From: a virus
Lineage: Duplodnaviria > Caudoviricetes
Length of the DNA stretch: 64,000 nt
Strand: one strand, 5' to 3'
IMG/VR virus record: IMGVR_UViG_3300028603_000017
Location: 160,001 to 224,000 of that record
In this document: positions 7,554 through 63,964 of the stretch, piece after piece
How the letters are laid out: the number at the start of each line of letters is the position of its first letter
Numbering within the stretch: the first letter of the stretch is position 1
The notes under the pieces: model-generated
The model's input: the letters and a program-made list of their open reading frames with translations, nothing else
Told to the model about the DNA's origin: nothing
The model's database searches: none
Program-made: the position numbers and the translations under genes

Positions 7554-9440
7554 ATGGCTATTCATGACGGCACTTCACAACAAGCCGCACAACCTCAAGC
7601 AGCTACCCAAGCCGCATTTGATGCTCCTCTAGCAGCTACTGCAGCTGCACCTCAATCGCAAGCACAACAACAAAAAATGAACCAAACTTTCTCCTTTCAC
7701 TCCAACAGCGGTATCTTCGGCACGCCTATCGGTCGCACACCTGGCACGGAAGTGCTGGTGAGCCTGCAAGAAAAGCTCACCGAAATCTACAAGCAAGCCA
7801 AGGACAGTTCTTTTGAGTTTGCGCTCTTTCCTCTGGACAAGAACAACGAACAACAGCTGTATTTCTCAGCTCTGGTTGTTCTGGGTTTTGTACGTGGCGA
7901 TCGCAAGAACGCTGCCTACCACACCCTGATTCTGGAAGCTTCCAACGACGATCCAGGCTCTATCCATCAGCAAGTCCAAAACGACATGATCGAAGTGATT
8001 CGTGTTGCTTCGGATGCTTCGGATAACGAACTCAACAAGATCGCTGTGGAAAAGCTGACTCAAGCTTTCCCTGGCGTGCAGCTGTTTAACGCTGACTCTA
8101 TGGTTGTTCCTCGAAAGTTCAACCTGGAAGACAAGACAGCGGTGCACAATTTGGCACTGAACGCTGCTATGGCCAGTACCACGGAGCTGCGCAAGCGCAC
8201 TCCTGGTTATAGCGATCTGAATATGGCTGGCTTTGCTCGTGACTCTAGCCTGGTGGTAACACCTCGCTTTGAAACCAGCACTGTCAAGAACATTGATGAG
8301 CTGCCTCGTCGTCAAGACGTCAAGATCGTGTTTGGCTCTCAACAAGTCAAGCAACAAAACAACCAGTCTCTGAATTCAGGTGATCGTTCTGCTGCTCTGG
8401 CAGAGATCTCTGGCTATATTGACCTGCTGTGGGCTCCGGTTAATCCCGTGGCTCAATACGGTATGATGCCTGTGCCTGGCTATCAGATGCCTGCTCAAAA
8501 GTATGCAGCTAACCTGATCATTACCAACTTCTTCAGCCCTCGCCTGTCGACTCTGGCCGGTGTTCTGCTGGCTCTGACCACCGTCAAGGCTTTCTCCGAT
8601 CAGAACAACTGGTACGGTGCTTTCCGATCCAACGGCGTGCGTAGCAATATGCGCGATATTGGTTATCTGAACATCGAAGCCAATCTGGGTGGTGACCCGA
8701 ACCAGCCTGGCTCTCCTGTGGAAATCTCTATGGATTCCTACGGTGCGGCAGATCTGTATCGTTATCTGAACCAGCTGATCCGTCCGGGTCTGGCTATTTC
8801 GATTGACGTGCCTGAGTCTGGTCCTGAGTCCTGGCTGCTCTCAGTTCTGAGCGTAGCTGCCTCTGGCAGTGAGCACTCTGGTGATGCACAGCGCATGATC
8901 TTCAACGCTGCTCAAACGCTAACCAACGGTAACTTTGCGAATTTCTTCCCGCAAGGTGCATCCATGTTCGACAACGTTGGTAACCCTGTACATCTTGGTT
9001 ACTACGAGTCCGACAAGGATACCTACCGTGATATCCGTGATATCGACTACGTGGCTGTCGCTGCTCTGAGTCGTGATCTGGATAGCATCAAGCGCTGGTC
9101 TGATACCTGGACGGCTACGTCTGTTCCTCTGGGCAAGCGCATGGATACCCGTCAGCGCTTCATCCGTGATCTGACTGGTGGTAAGGCTGTGTTTACTGGT
9201 AAGGCTAACCGCGTTACCTTTAGCGCTGCTTTCATCGATGCTCTGGTCAAGGGCTGCGCGGCTGTGGGTGTTACGCCTCGTCTGGACGCCAATGGTCTGG
9301 GTAATGTGGTGGTGGATCGCGGCACCGCGTCCTTCATCGATCAAGCTCTGGTGGGTCCTGCACCTACTAACTTCTTCAGCTCCGGTATTGTGGGTGGCTA
9401 TACCAATAGCTATGCTCCCAACAACTTCCGTACCTGGTAA
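7554..9440 (+). CDS. chmA: chimallin, major phage nuclear shell protein (phiKZ gp54-like)
   Basis: 628 aa with a Q/A-rich flexible N-terminus, RDIGYLN and RDIRDIDYVAV motifs, GC-richer codon usage suggesting high expression, and position just upstream of the nvRNAP beta-prime gene. Confidence 0.85.
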   Translation: MAIHDGTSQQAAQPQAATQAAFDAPLAATAAAPQSQAQQQKMNQTFSFHSNSGIFGTPIGRTPGTEVLVSLQEKLTEIYKQAKDSSFEFALFPLDKNNEQQLYFSALVVLGFVRGDRKNAAYHTLILEASNDDPGSIHQQVQNDMIEVIRVASDASDNELNKIAVEKLTQAFPGVQLFNADSMVVPRKFNLEDKTAVHNLALNAAMASTTELRKRTPGYSDLNMAGFARDSSLVVTPRFETSTVKNIDELPRRQDVKIVFGSQQVKQQNNQSLNSGDRSAALAEISGYIDLLWAPVNPVAQYGMMPVPGYQMPAQKYAANLIITNFFSPRLSTLAGVLLALTTVKAFSDQNNWYGAFRSNGVRSNMRDIGYLNIEANLGGDPNQPGSPVEISMDSYGAADLYRYLNQLIRPGLAISIDVPESGPESWLLSVLSVAASGSEHSGDAQRMIFNAAQTLTNGNFANFFPQGASMFDNVGNPVHLGYYESDKDTYRDIRDIDYVAVAALSRDLDSIKRWSDTWTATSVPLGKRMDTRQRFIRDLTGGKAVFTGKANRVTFSAAFIDALVKGCAAVGVTPRLDANGLGNVVVDRGTASFIDQALVGPAPTNFFSSGIVGGYTNSYAPNNFRTW

Positions 9441-10086: not shown

Positions 10087-12045
10087 GTGGCTGTATCTGA
10101 AGAGTTAGTTAATTTCAACCAGCTATTTAATCAGCTAAAGCAACCTCCCTTGATTATCAACGATATTGTTGAGACATCAGCAGAGGAAAAAGATACACTG
10201 AAGAATCTGATATTTACTAAGTATGATTCTGATGTGATGAAAAACGTACCTAGCTGTGACTGTGGTAGTATCACAGGTGAATACAATATCGGTGTTCTAT
10301 GTAAAAACTGTGATACCGAAGTTGTATCAGCTGTAGATAAAGAGCTAGAGCCTATTCTTTGGGTAAGAGCGCCTAAGAATATTCATGCATTAATTAATCC
10401 TACTGTTTGGACTCAGTTATCTCTGAGATTCAAGAAGAGTAATTTTGATACTATTCGCTGGATTTGTGATACAACTTATAGAGTAGGACCTAATGATGGA
10501 GCTATTGTAGCTGAGCTGCAAGAAGCTGGTATTACCAGAGGTTACAATAACTTTATTGAAAACTTTTACGATATCATCAATCGCTTATTTGAGATGAGGA
10601 GTTTTTCCTCTAAATCAAGAGTGACTTATGATCTACTACCACAATTGCTGGTAGAAAATAAAGATTCAATATTCTCTCAATATCTACCACTGGTTAACAG
10701 AACCATGCTAGTAATTGAGTCTACGACTGTTGGTACATATGTCGATCCATTTGTACCTACTGCTATTGATGCTATTTTAACAGTAGCATCAATTGATGTG
10801 GATGAATCTAGGTTTTCTATTAGGACAAAGGAAAACAGAGTTGCTAAGTTCCTATCTGGAATCAGTAGTTATTACTATAACTTTGCGAAAAACAATCTAG
10901 GTAGAAAGTCAGGCACCTATAGGCAACACGTTTATGGATCACGATCTCACTTCTCATTTAGAGCGGTGGTGTCGTCTTTAACGGACGCTCACCAGTATGA
11001 TGAGATTCATATTCCGTGGGGTATCGGAATTACTATATTTCGATATCACATCATCAATAAACTCATTCGACGAGGATATACCGTCAATCAAGCGATATAT
11101 CTGATTAATGCACACGCAAAGGTATTTCATCCACTCATTAACGAGATCTTTAAAGAACTCATTGATGAATCACCTCGTAAAGGTGTCGATGTAACTATTA
11201 ATCGAAATCCCTCTTTGGTACGTGGATCTATTCAAAGAGTGAGGATTACTAAAGTCAAAGAAGATACCTCAATCAATACTGTTTCATTCAGCATTTTGAT
11301 TGTAGGTCCCATGAACGCTAAAGATTGGTGTTCTAAAAGCTCCTTAATTGCTGGGAACTCCTGTAAAGGACAATCAGCAGCTGATCCTAGATACATATCT
11401 AGGCGAGTTCAACGACTAGTCGAAAGACGTACAGCCAAGCGGCTGGAAACAGGAGCCAGTCTCTGAATAAGAGATGGAAGATATAGTCTGAACATCTGTG
11501 GTAACACAGAGCTGGATTCACTATCCGGGTAATGCGTAGCGAACATTGCTGAACATATTTGGATTTTGACGGTGGAAGCATTGCCGTCTCGAAAGCTTTT
11601 GAATTGCTGGGAACTCTCACACCGAGACAATCAGCAGCCAAGATCTTATTTGCTTACCGGTAAATAGGATAAGGTTCAACGACTATCCCGAAAGGGAGTA
11701 CAGCCAAGCGGCTGGAAGCGGAAGCCACCAAACCAGGTGAAGATATAGTCTGAACATCTATGGTGACATAGAGCGAAGCAGGTAATGCTGCGGGTTAGGA
11801 AATAGCGAGCCTAGCTGAACAATACGGATGCCCTTAATTTCACTTTGACTTTAGATAACGATTTGTCTGAAGAGCTCAAGCATCTTGATCCACATAAGAG
11901 CTGTTTTGAACTCGATGAACCTAGAACCATCTCTGGCAATCTCTCGATTCCCAAGACAGTTGTAGGCACAATTAGTAATTGGTTACATTTTGAAGAACCT
12001 GATAACACACCCACGGACTTTATGAAGTCTATTGCAATAGGTTAA
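10087..12045 (+). CDS. non-virion RNA polymerase beta-prime N-terminal/catalytic subunit (phiKZ gp55-56.1-like), spliced: join(10087..11319,11562..11573,11827..12045), 487 aa
   Basis: Zn-binding CDCG...CKNC, KSGTYRQHVYGSR, RAVVS and NRNPSL motifs; joining the three exons in frame restores GPMNA-DFDG-DALNF, i.e. the catalytic NADFDGD. Confidence 0.92.
11320..11561 (+). ncRNA. group I intron 1 (IA2-like, 242 nt, no homing endonuclease ORF)
   Basis: 5' exon ends in U and pairs with IGS GGUGUUC (U-G at the splice site); core elements P AAUUGCUGGGAA, Q AAUCAGCAGC, R GUUCAACGACUA, S AAGAUAUAGUCU; P7.1/P7.2-like hairpins; terminal G at 11561. Confidence 0.92.
11574..11826 (+). ncRNA. group I intron 2 (IA2-like, 253 nt, no homing endonuclease ORF)
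   Basis: Exon GACGGU pairs with IGS GCCGUC; P10 GCAUU pairs with 3' exon GAUGC; same P/Q/R/S cores; terminal G at 11826. Confidence 0.92.
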
Positions 12046-12050
12046 TTAGC

Positions 12051-12662
12051 ATGAGAGTAGTCTCTGGCGGTACTGCTGCCTGGAATGCGATAGCATACGG
12101 ACAGCAAAACCCTCTTAATCTTGGGTATTTTAAAAGTCAACTAGAGAACATTGGACAAAACCTGAATGAACAAGCCAAAATCTTTTATCAGGATGTCCAA
12201 AGTCTTTACGATAAGTTCAACAGCTCTGAGGCAATGCGCTTGATGCGCTCAGCCATGAAGTCTGCTGCATCACTGTTTAATGATAATATCATTAGACCAC
12301 TGACATCAACAGATGAGCTACAAAACGCATCTATACAAATGCAAAGATGGGTAATGGCTAATCCCGTTATTCGTCAGATGTACCACAATCAGGAATGTGA
12401 CGGGTATTCTGATACATATGTGGATATGGAGCCTGGCAAAATAGGTGAAGCTCATTACGACTATCGCAGGGTGATGGACGGCATTGTGGTGTGTGATGAG
12501 GATCAAGAGTCCTTTACACAGTACTTTGAAGATCTGCATGAAGGTGATAGAGATTTGATTCTCAGTGAGCAAAGCGATATTTTGACAACATGGTCTTTCA
12601 TGGAAGCTATGGTCAAAGCACTCAAAGATGATCCAACGTCTCAATATGGTGGTCAGCTTTAA
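12051..12662 (+). CDS. conserved Chimalliviridae core hypothetical protein (phiKZ gp59-like by position)
   Basis: 203 aa with a GYSDTY..PG..HYDYRRVMDG block, directly after the nvRNAP gene. Confidence 0.7.
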   Translation: MRVVSGGTAAWNAIAYGQQNPLNLGYFKSQLENIGQNLNEQAKIFYQDVQSLYDKFNSSEAMRLMRSAMKSAASLFNDNIIRPLTSTDELQNASIQMQRWVMANPVIRQMYHNQECDGYSDTYVDMEPGKIGEAHYDYRRVMDGIVVCDEDQESFTQYFEDLHEGDRDLILSEQSDILTTWSFMEAMVKALKDDPTSQYGGQL

Positions 12663-63520: not shown

Positions 63521-63597
63521 CCGGCCGTAACTCAGCGGATAGTAGTAATCCCCTTCTAAGGGATAAGTCGGGGGTTCGAATCCCTCCGGCCGGACCA
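63521..63597 (+). tRNA. tRNA-Arg (anticodon TCT)
   Basis: Acceptor ccggccg/cggccgg, anticodon arm atccc-cttctaa-gggat, GTTCGAAT T-loop, encoded CCA. Confidence 0.9.
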
Positions 63598-63624
63598 TAA
63601 ATCTTTAATAGTTTTCTTAATAGT

Positions 63625-63713
63625 GCCCGGATGGTGAAATTGGTAGACACAACGGACTTAAAATCCGTCGGCCTTAACGGGTCGTACCGGTTCGATTCCG
63701 GTTCTGGGCACCA
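63625..63713 (+). tRNA. tRNA-Leu (anticodon TAA)
   Basis: Anticodon arm acgga-cttaaaa-tccgt, long variable arm, GTTCGATT, A73, encoded CCA. Confidence 0.93.
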
Positions 63714-63736
63714 TTAAGAAAATTACAACAAAATAC

Positions 63737-63836
63737 TTCCAGTGAGATTAGGATAGTAGGTCATAGGTCGACAATAGTTGATACTGGCTTAGAACTGAAG
63801 CTAGATGGTGTAGTCGTTCGATTCAGCCACTGGAAA
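63737..63836 (+). ncRNA. tRNA-like structured element or pseudo-tRNA
   Basis: Terminal stem ttccagtg/cactggaa, internal hairpin ctggct/agctag, GTTCGATTC; no canonical cloverleaf and no CCA. Confidence 0.4.
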
Positions 63837-63879
63837 CTAATTCATAAAGAATATAAAATGAAAAATTGGTAAGATTAAT

Positions 63880-63964
63880 GGGTGTGTGGCCGAATGGTTA
63901 GGCAGCGGCCTCATAAGCCGTGAGGGAAACCTCTAAGTAGGATCGTGACCTATCGCACCCACCA
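63880..63964 (+). tRNA. tRNA with anticodon CAT (Met or Ile2) on a class II, long-variable-arm body
   Basis: Acceptor gggtgtg/cgcaccc, anticodon arm gcggc-ctcataa-gccgt, variable arm gagg-gaaa-cctc, atypical T-loop ATCGTGA, A73, encoded CCA. Confidence 0.8.

What the first reader, a model, noticed from the sequence alone, without database searches (positions are those of the whole stretch)
11562..11573. The micro-exon is fully used as guide substrate, and skipping it would give an in-frame dead polymerase
The first 6 nt (GAUUUU) pair with intron 1's P10 guide (AAGAUU, just 5' of IGS GGUGUUC). The last 6 nt (GACGGU) pair with intron 2's P1 guide (GCCGUC). So 12 nt may be near the minimum spacing for two adjacent ribozymes, and may impose a splicing order. 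Both introns are phase 0 and both 3' exons begin with GAU. Mis-splicing from the intron 1 5' site to the intron 2 3' site would delete DFDG in frame (NA-DALNF), giving a near-full-length, catalytically dead subunit. That would allow bacterial-type alternative splicing or a timing switch for the early-to-late transition.
Basis: inference. Interest (0 to 1): 0.7.

Follow-up and report, generated by a model that had tools for sequence, protein, structure and literature searches.

The report
Twelve-base exon between two phage introns
In an uncultured nucleus-forming giant phage, two small self-splicing introns sit 12 bases apart inside the codons for the RNA polymerase's metal-binding loop, but near-identical phages carry none, one or a different intron there, so this looks like stacked selfish elements at a favoured insertion spot and not a splicing switch.

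Summary
Two ORF-less group I introns (11320-11561 and 11574-11826; Rfam 78.9 and 93.7 bits) split the NADFDGD codons of a phiKZ gp55-like non-virion RNA polymerase beta'-N gene. They leave a 12-nt exon, GATTTTGACGGT (DFDG). Its first 6 nt pair with intron 1's P10 guide and its last 6 nt with intron 2's P1 guide. Skipping it is in frame.

- Public assemblies of near-identical phages hold four alleles: intronless (ORF identical to the predicted spliced product), intron 2 only, both introns, and one different HNH-bearing intron at NAD|FDGD. The arrangement is therefore optional.
- The two guides use non-overlapping halves of the exon, so pairing forces no splicing order.
- The splice-site duplexes are well differentiated, which in published model work suppresses exon skipping.
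- Shorter exons between group I introns are known (1 nt in placozoan cox1), and exon skipping by tandem phage introns is already described (Twort).

The same 12-nt exon recurs in a distant phage lineage, and phage Goslar has a 13-nt one. Earlier notes of this scan report such micro-exons in at least 35 other genomes. No RNA evidence was obtained. Verdict: a real, tidy new member of a known kind, of moderate interest.

The parts
7554..9440 (+). Chimallin (phage nuclear shell) gene. Context that identifies the phage as a nucleus-forming jumbo phage, in the same gene order as phiKZ gp54-gp55.
   Evidence: Pfam PF25677, E 1.1e-34; PHROG 4795; phiKZ gene order.
10087..11319 (+). Exon 1 of the nvRNAP beta'-N (phiKZ gp55-like) gene. 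It ends ...GPMNA.
   Evidence: PHROG 2987, E 5.5e-137; tblastn to phiKZ gp55 and FLC9 gp381; the intronless allele matches PDB 7OGP chain A, E 1.5e-99.
11313..11319 (+). 5' strand of P1 of intron 1 (GAACGCU). Its last U forms the U.G pair at the splice site.
   Evidence: Pairs with 11327-11333: 7 bp, -8.3 kcal/mol.
11320..11561 (+). Intron 1: ORF-less group I intron of 242 nt, inserted NA|DFDGD, phase 0. P10 guide AAGAUU is 11321-11326, IGS GGUGUUC is 11327-11333, and the terminal G is 11561.
   Evidence: RF00028 at 78.9 bits. Precisely absent in alleles L020, L023, L024, L025 and L027. Compensatory pairs against intron 2.
11562..11573 (+). Micro-exon GATTTTGACGGT (D-F-D-G). Nt 1-6 pair with intron 1's P10 guide and nt 7-12 with intron 2's IGS.
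   Evidence: Contiguous with both flanking exons in the intronless alleles.
11574..11826 (+). Intron 2: ORF-less group I intron of 253 nt, inserted DFDG|D, phase 0. P10 guide GCAUU is 11578-11582, IGS GCCGUC is 11583-11588, and the terminal G is 11826.
   Evidence: RF00028 at 93.7 bits. Present alone in L020 and L023, absent in L024, L025 and L027. 82% identical to intron 1 over 223 nt.
11827..12045 (+). Exon 3 (DALNFTLTLDN...IAIG, then the stop codon).
   Evidence: Translation; aligns with phiKZ gp56.1 and the FLC9 C-terminus.

Best explanation
**What it is.** The window comes from an uncultured, chimallin-encoding (nucleus-forming) jumbo phage. Its non-virion RNA polymerase beta'-N gene is a phiKZ gp55 homologue. 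Two small, related, ORF-less group I introns have invaded it at two separate sites 12 nt apart (NA|DFDG|D), inside the codons of the universal Mg-binding loop NADFDGD.

**How it works.** Each intron carries its own internal guide. Intron 1 recognises the end of exon 1 through P1 and the first half of the micro-exon through P10. Intron 2 recognises the second half of the micro-exon through P1 and the start of exon 3 through P10. Two independent self-splicing reactions, in either order, would therefore rebuild NADFDGD.

**Why the exon is 12 nt.** The micro-exon is simply the interval between two insertion sites in a hot spot for mobile introns. It is not a device. The introns are optional, present or absent among co-circulating, near-identical phages, and behave as selfish elements or their endonuclease-less remnants.

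**Shown and inferred.** Shown: the anatomy, the exact boundaries, the allele series and the recurrence of the hot spot. Inferred: that both introns actually self-splice in vivo.
For: **Intron identity and boundaries.**
- Both introns exceed the Rfam cut-off.
- Both have a U.G-closed P1, a P10 and a terminal G.
- They differ by 6 compensatory pairs in P3, P5, P7.1 and P9, with the core strands conserved.
- The predicted spliced ORF of 487 aa is identical to the ORF of the intronless allele L025.
- That ORF aligns through NADFDGD with PDB 7OGP chain A, which is PHIKZ055 fused to PHIKZ056.1, the spliced phiKZ protein.

**Allele series in independent public assemblies** (more than 99.5% identical flanks).
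- Intronless: L024, L025, L027, L159.
- Intron 2 only: L020, L023, and run X6.
- Both introns: the window, L021, L026, L162, L164, and runs X4 and X10.
- A single 1474-nt intron at NAD|FDGD carrying a NUMOD1/I-HmuI-like endonuclease ORF: L022.
- Flanking SNPs show recombinant haplotypes.

**Insertion hot spot.**
- phiKZ: N|A, with HNH gene gp56.
- L019 and this genome's own virion-RNAP paralogue: D|F.
- L018: D|G.
- L010: G|D.
- Goslar: within the F codon, and after GDA.
- The same A|D plus G|D pair, with the identical 12-nt exon, recurs in a lineage only 27% identical in protein, G001/G002.
Against: - There is no RNA evidence for splicing in this phage. The RNA-labelled runs that were laid carried the unspliced or genomic forms.
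- All allele evidence comes from assembled contigs, which can be chimeric, although the same forms recur in several samples.
- Neither intron carries an endonuclease, so how they spread is not shown.
- An intron-1-only allele was not seen. Intron 1 may therefore depend on intron 2 in some way, or it may simply be younger.
Confidence: 0.85

Rival explanations
1. One reading: the tight tandem arrangement is used for alternative splicing. Exon 1 is joined directly to exon 3, which produces a near-full-length beta'-N lacking DFDG. This dead or dominant-negative subunit would time the early-to-late switch.
For: - Skipping is in frame, giving 483 aa reading ...MNA-DALNF.
- The two introns are 82% identical and IA2-like. 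This matches Twort orf142 introns 2 and 3, which skip a 23-nt exon (PMC10136302, PMC3073962).
- Both 3' exons start with GAU, and the introns' 3' ends are similar.
Against: - Near-identical phages lack one or both introns, so no essential control can rest on them.
- Intron 1's P10 guide pairs with exon 3 over only 3 bp, at +0.8 kcal/mol.
- Cross-pairing of IGS and exon is -1.2 and -1.8 kcal/mol, against -8.3 and -9.6 for the cognate pairs. A chimeric P3 is -5.7 against -10.3.
- Differentiated splice sites suppressed skipping in the Tetrahymena tandem model (PMC10136302).
- No exon-skipped contig was seen, although none would be expected from this kind of data.
Confidence: 0.04
2. The ORF-less introns are kept because they protect the phage. 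By splitting the NADFDGD-coding DNA they destroy the recognition sites of homing or nicking endonucleases. Such enzymes are carried by introns of competing strains (for example the D|F HNH intron of allele L022) or of co-infecting jumbo phages. Stacking two introns would be the product of an arms race at this site.
For: - An endonuclease-bearing intron occupies a site between the two ORF-less introns in a sister allele, and is never seen together with them.
- At least 6 insertion sites lie within about 24 nt across lineages.
- PhiPA3 gp210, an intron HNH enzyme, nicks the intron-free RNAP gene of phiKZ and gives a competitive advantage (PMC11620839).
Against: - No cleavage data exist and the endonuclease's target is unknown.
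- Intronless alleles persist in several samples.
- The pattern is equally expected from purely selfish gain and loss.
Confidence: 0.25
3. Artefact: the tandem introns are an assembly duplication of one intron, or the two elements are one composite intron (a twintron) with no real exon between them.
For: The two introns are 82% identical.
Against: - The same arrangement is found in at least 4 independent samples.
- Each unit has its own IGS and P10 matching its own flanks.
- Intron 2 occurs alone, and both are absent at exact boundaries in other alleles.
- The 12 nt are needed to restore DFDG.
Confidence: 0.01

Closest known systems
phiKZ gp55 / gp56 / gp56.1 (group I intron with an HNH endonuclease in the nvRNAP beta'-N gene; predicted by Mesyanzhinov et al. 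2002 as cited in PMC10914365; spliced protein solved in PDB 7OGP)
   Same: Same gene, next to chimallin. Same catalytic motif is interrupted. The intron family is related: the 3' end CTGAACAATACG is identical to that of intron 2 here.
   Different: phiKZ has one intron, at N|A, and it carries an endonuclease gene. Here there are two ORF-less introns, at A|D and G|D, with a 12-nt exon between them.
Twort orf142 introns 2 and 3 (Landthaler & Shub 1999; described in PMC10136302 and PMC3073962)
   Same: Phage gene with tandem, highly similar IA2 group I introns flanking a short exon. [quoted passage not shown]
   Different: The Twort exon is 23 nt against 12 nt here. Skipping was shown by RT-PCR in Twort and is untested here. 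The splice-site guides here are clearly differentiated. The original paper is not held in the library and could not be read.
Escherichia phage Goslar gp55 homologue (MK327938, Goslar_00188/00185, with an annotated Intron_gpI and an HNH gene)
   Same: A cultured chimallivirus in which the NADFDGD codons are cut twice, leaving a 13-nt exon CGACGGTGACGCT.
   Different: The insertion sites differ: inside the F codon, and after GDA. The first intron carries an HNH gene. The second intervening sequence is unannotated, and Rfam did not score it at E <= 0.001, so I read it as group-I-like by eye only.
PhiPA3 gp210 intron in the virion RNAP beta gene (Birkholz et al. 2024, PMC11620839)
   Same: A mobile group I intron at conserved catalytic-region residues of a chimallivirus RNAP gene. 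It shows that such elements take part in phage-phage competition.
   Different: A different subunit and motif. It is endonuclease-bearing and single.
Placozoan cox1 1-nt exon between two group IB introns (PMC5436844); Ophiostoma cob tandem introns with 6-nt and 18-nt pseudo-exons (PMC12308204)
   Same: Very short exons flanked by two independent group I introns, explained by a second intron inserting next to a resident one.
   Different: These are organellar and probably protein-assisted, and are not phage genes. They show that 12 nt is not a lower limit.

Membership tests
Group I self-splicing intron (Rfam RF00028) | Covariance-model score above the curated gathering cut-off | tested here: met
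   78.9 bits (intron 1) and 93.7 bits (intron 2) against a cut-off of 50.
Group I self-splicing intron (Rfam RF00028) | 5' exon ends in U, paired with G of an internal guide sequence (P1); the intron ends in G | tested here: met
   GAACGCU/GGUGUUC and GACGGU/GCCGUC, both closed by U.G. Terminal G at 11561 and 11826.
Group I self-splicing intron (Rfam RF00028) | Precise excision restores the host reading frame | tested here: met
   The predicted spliced ORF is identical, 487 of 487 residues, to the ORF of the intronless allele L025.
Group I self-splicing intron (Rfam RF00028) | Conserved helices supported by compensatory change | tested here: met
   6 pairs changed on both sides between intron 1 and intron 2, in P3, P5, P7.1 and P9. 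This rests on only two sequences.
Group I self-splicing intron (Rfam RF00028) | Guanosine-dependent self-splicing of the RNA | not testable with these tools
   The contigs laid from RNA-labelled runs carried unspliced or genomic forms.
Mobile intron with its own homing endonuclease | Endonuclease ORF inside the intron | tested here: not met
   Introns 1 and 2 are 242 and 253 nt, with no room for such an ORF. The sister allele L022 does carry a 356-aa NUMOD1/I-HmuI-like ORF.
Exon-skipping tandem group I introns (Twort orf142 type) | Two similar introns flanking a short exon | tested here: met
   82% identity over 223 nt; 12-nt exon.
Exon-skipping tandem group I introns (Twort orf142 type) | An exon-skipped RNA product is observed | not testable with these tools
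   No RNA reads of this phage were available. The energetics argue against efficient skipping.
Chimallivirus nvRNAP beta'-N subunit (phiKZ gp55) | Sequence homology through the NADFDGD loop, and position next to chimallin | tested here: met
   E 1.5e-99 to 7OGP chain A, aligned across NADFDGD. The chimallin gene lies directly upstream.

The most novel reading that the evidence does not exclude
Stacked introns in the NADFDGD codons are the visible record of an ongoing contest between co-circulating strains of one jumbo phage. Each intron, with or without its endonuclease, removes the target site of the others. The two-intron allele would then be a doubly shielded form of the catalytic-loop DNA, immune to the HNH enzyme of the D|F intron carried by a sister strain. 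A small amount of exon skipping could occur as a cost.
Probability: 0.25. Interest if true: 0.6.

Novelty: new member of a known kind. Interest (0 to 1): 0.38.

Why it matters
This is a clean natural example of how selfish ribozymes pile up on the most conserved few codons of an essential enzyme. Five codon junctions of the NADFDGD codons are used as insertion sites across jumbo phages, with two further sites read by eye in Goslar, and up to two are occupied at once here. Four alleles of one gene can be recovered from public metagenomes of near-identical phages. That gives a ready-made series (0, 1, 2 introns, or an endonuclease-bearing intron) for three tests: whether tandem group I introns with a 12-nt exon splice independently, whether they ever skip the exon, and whether ORF-less introns protect against intron endonucleases. 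For annotation, gp55-like genes of chimalliviruses will be mis-called as truncated ORFs unless such micro-exons are looked for.

Tried and rejected
- **RNA evidence.** One search for sequencing runs and one laying of reads were allowed. The runs labelled RNA (X10, X13) gave long contigs carrying introns, that is genomic-like forms, so they say nothing about splicing or skipping. Because intronless DNA alleles exist, spliced-looking reads in metatranscriptomes would be ambiguous anyway.
- **More alleles.** An exact-pattern scan of metagenome contigs for the end of exon 1 found nothing, and the same scan of viral contigs found only the known fragment. The look-up with the upstream 159-aa ORF found nothing.
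- **Twort paper.** Landthaler & Shub 1999 is not held. Its content is cited second-hand.
- **Literature search.** Searching 'DFDGD' with 'group I intron' returned no paper.
- **Rfam misses.** Rfam did not recognise the third intervening sequence of G002 even at E = 10, nor the second one of Goslar at E <= 0.001. I read both as group-I-like from their IGS, P10, terminal G and core-like motifs only.
- **Other phages checked.** Klebsiella phage Eowyn proved intronless. Serratia phage KpGz_1 was fetched but its record is unannotated and I did not examine its sequence, so they gave no independent test of the earlier Klebsiella note.
- **Rejected readings.** Assembly artefact or twintron, and 12 nt as a minimum spacing. 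See the rival explanations.

Full report
**What is there.**
The window is part of a 261-kb IMG/VR virus record. It encodes chimallin at 7554-9440. Directly downstream, as in phiKZ (gp54 then gp55), lies a homologue of the non-virion RNA polymerase beta'-N subunit (PHROG 2987, E 5.5e-137).

The gene reads ...GPMNA up to 11319 and then breaks. Rfam finds two group I introns, at 78.9 and 93.7 bits against a cut-off of 50. Reading the sequence gives these parts:
- Intron 1: 11320-11561.
- Micro-exon: 11562-11573, GATTTTGACGGT.
- Intron 2: 11574-11826.
- Exon 3: from 11827 (DALNF...).

**The pairings.**
I checked each helix.

| Helix | Pairing | Length | Energy (kcal/mol) | Chance |
|---|---|---|---|---|
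| P1, intron 1 | GAACGCU/GGUGUUC | 7 bp, closing U.G | -8.3 | not computed |
| P10, intron 1 | GAUUUU/AAGAUU | 6 bp, two G.U | -1.9 | about 0.006 |
| P1, intron 2 | GACGGU/GCCGUC | 6 bp | -9.6 | not computed |
| P10, intron 2 | GAUGC/GCAUU | 5 bp | -5.0 | about 0.015 |

So the 12 nt are indeed shared 6+6 between the P10 of the upstream ribozyme and the P1 of the downstream one. The two halves do not overlap, so pairing alone imposes no order. Steric crowding of two ribozyme cores on adjacent helices may still favour sequential splicing, but that is inference.

The introns are 82% identical over 223 nt and are each other's best match among the ten introns compared. They differ by six fully compensatory pairs in P3, P5, P7.1 and P9, and have quite different P6 and P8. 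Both therefore look like working ribozymes. The hairpins between P7 and P3' indicate subgroup IA2. That assignment is my reading and not a tool result.

**Boundaries proven by natural alleles.**
The downstream ORF (12051-12662) was used to fetch public contigs of near-identical phages. Together with the laid contigs and further look-ups, they fall into four alleles.

| Allele | Content | Seen in |
|---|---|---|
| 0 | Intronless | L024, L025, L027, L159 |
| B | Intron 2 only | L020, L023, run X6 |
| A | Both introns | window, L021, L026, L162, L164, runs X4 and X10 |
| C | One 1474-nt group I intron at NAD\|FDGD | L022 |

- In allele 0, AACGCT-GATTTTGACGGT-GATGCC is contiguous. The 487-aa ORF is identical to the predicted spliced product.
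- The allele C intron scores 79.5 bits. It carries a 356-aa NUMOD1/I-HmuI-like endonuclease ORF.
- Flanks differ by a handful of SNPs over 2.5 kb, in recombinant combinations.
- An intron-1-only allele was not seen.
- Intron 2 starts GGAAGC in allele A and AAAGC in allele B. This is the only difference that tracks the presence of intron 1. The other variable position, 11764, does not.
- The intronless ORF matches PDB 7OGP chain A, named PHIKZ055 plus PHIKZ056.1, at E 1.5e-99 and aligns through NADFDGD. The spliced form of the phiKZ homologue is therefore the real protein.

**A hot spot, not a one-off.**
Insertion sites found in or next to the NADFDGD codons:

| Source | Insertion site | Notes |
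|---|---|---|
| phiKZ | N\|A | one intron, with HNH gene gp56 |
| This phage | A\|D and G\|D | two ORF-less introns |
| L010 (50% identical relative) | G\|D | intron with an ORF |
| L018 | D\|G | |
| L019, allele C, and this genome's own virion-RNAP beta' paralogue (GAD\|FDGD) | D\|F | |
| Goslar | inside the F codon, and after GDA | leaves a 13-nt exon |

- For Goslar, Rfam scored only the first intron, at 46.9 bits, which is below the cut-off.
- A pattern scan found the identical 12-nt exon, again between an A|D intron and a G|D intervening sequence, in two large contigs whose gp55 homologue is only 27% identical to ours.
- The downstream element there is not recognised by Rfam. It does have the IGS GCCGUC, the P10 guide CUCGUU matching its 3' exon, and a terminal G.
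- Earlier notes of this scan report micro-exons of 9 to 21 nt in this motif in at least 35 other genomes. Apart from my look at Goslar, I did not check them.

**The interpretation.**
Skipping the micro-exon is in frame (483 aa). It removes two of the three aspartates that hold the catalytic Mg2+, which is established knowledge for multisubunit RNA polymerases. The product would therefore be inactive.

A programmed switch is unlikely for three reasons.
1. The introns are optional among near-identical phages.
2. The features that drive skipping in known cases are weak here. According to PMC10136302, Twort skips a 23-nt exon and Coxiella a 34-nt one. The routes are either one large chimeric ribozyme, or stepwise use of the first junction as an alternative 5' splice site, and differentiating the splice sites suppresses skipping. 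Here:
   - Intron 2's IGS binds the end of exon 1 at -1.8 kcal/mol, against -9.6 for its own site.
   - Intron 1's IGS binds the end of the micro-exon at -1.2, against -8.3.
   - A chimeric P3 is -5.7, against -10.3.
   - Intron 1's P10 guide matches exon 3 over 3 bp only.
3. The idea of a minimum spacing fails against the 1-nt exon of placozoan cox1 (PMC5436844) and the shorter phage exons noted above.

Low-level skipping cannot be excluded, and no RNA data could be obtained.

**What is known.**
- Introns with endonucleases in phiKZ gp56, gp72 and gp179 were predicted in 2002 (cited in PMC10914365).
- The PhiPA3 gp210 intron endonuclease gives a competitive advantage (PMC11620839, PMC12908238).
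- I found no paper describing tandem introns or micro-exons in the NADFDGD codons.

The case is a new member of a known kind. Its value lies in the natural allele series.

**Verdict.**
The mechanistic description of the guides is correct. The regulatory reading is not supported, at about 4%. The best explanation is two independently acquired, optional selfish introns at a homing hot spot (0.85). It is open whether they also shield the site from intron endonucleases (about 0.25).

Noticed in passing
outside the window: G000:C1:126000-139000 (locus L029), introns near L029 4221-4662, 8008-8311 and 9248-9511: The genome's other three group I introns all sit in virion RNA polymerase genes. One splits GAD|FDGD of the paralogous beta' gene (PHROG 2986). 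This is the same codon junction as the endonuclease-bearing intron of allele L022, and the 3' ends are similar. Two more lie in the PHROG 3148 beta-like gene, one of them next to a GDRLG...KGV motif.
   Followed up: partly
L152 3007-~3290 (G002 = IMGVR_UViG_3300045988_166019): An intervening sequence of about 285 nt follows the same 12-nt micro-exon. It has a convincing IGS (GCCGUC), a P10 guide (CUCGUU) and a terminal G. No Rfam family recognises it, even at E = 10. It may be an unmodelled or degenerate group I intron.
   Followed up: partly
L022 2794-4267 (Logan contig from SRR30104876): A sister allele of the same phage carries a single 1474-nt group I intron at NAD|FDGD. Its 356-aa ORF has NUMOD1 and I-HmuI-like domains. 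This intron was never seen together with introns 1 or 2.
   Followed up: yes
window 11574-11575: Intron 2 begins GGAAGC in every two-intron contig and AAAGC (one base shorter) in every intron-2-only contig. This is the only difference that tracks the presence of intron 1. It may be a co-conversion mark of the event that brought intron 1, or an adaptation.
   Followed up: partly
L158 (Goslar MK327938, 166500-171000), minus strand: GenBank annotates one Intron_gpI and an HNH gene. The sequence reads exon | intron | 13-nt CGACGGTGACGCT | second intervening sequence | ATGAACAAC. The 'hypothetical protein' Goslar_00185 is therefore the last exon of the beta'-N gene.
   Followed up: partly
L009 / L028 (IMGVR_UViG_3300014206_000091) contig end: A 20-kb contig of the same phage ends exactly after GATTTTGACGGT. 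An intronless 1.2-kb contig (L027) comes from the same metagenome. The assembly appears to break at the polymorphic intron site, so mixed alleles within one sample are likely.
   Followed up: no
L152 1200-1975: In the distant lineage G002, the gp55 homologue has a further group I intron (74.7 bits) after ...GRNPTFI. This lies inside another conserved beta' motif, so that gene has three intervening sequences.
   Followed up: partly
window 63521-63961: Three tRNA genes at the end of the window (Rfam, 45-58.5 bits).
   Followed up: no
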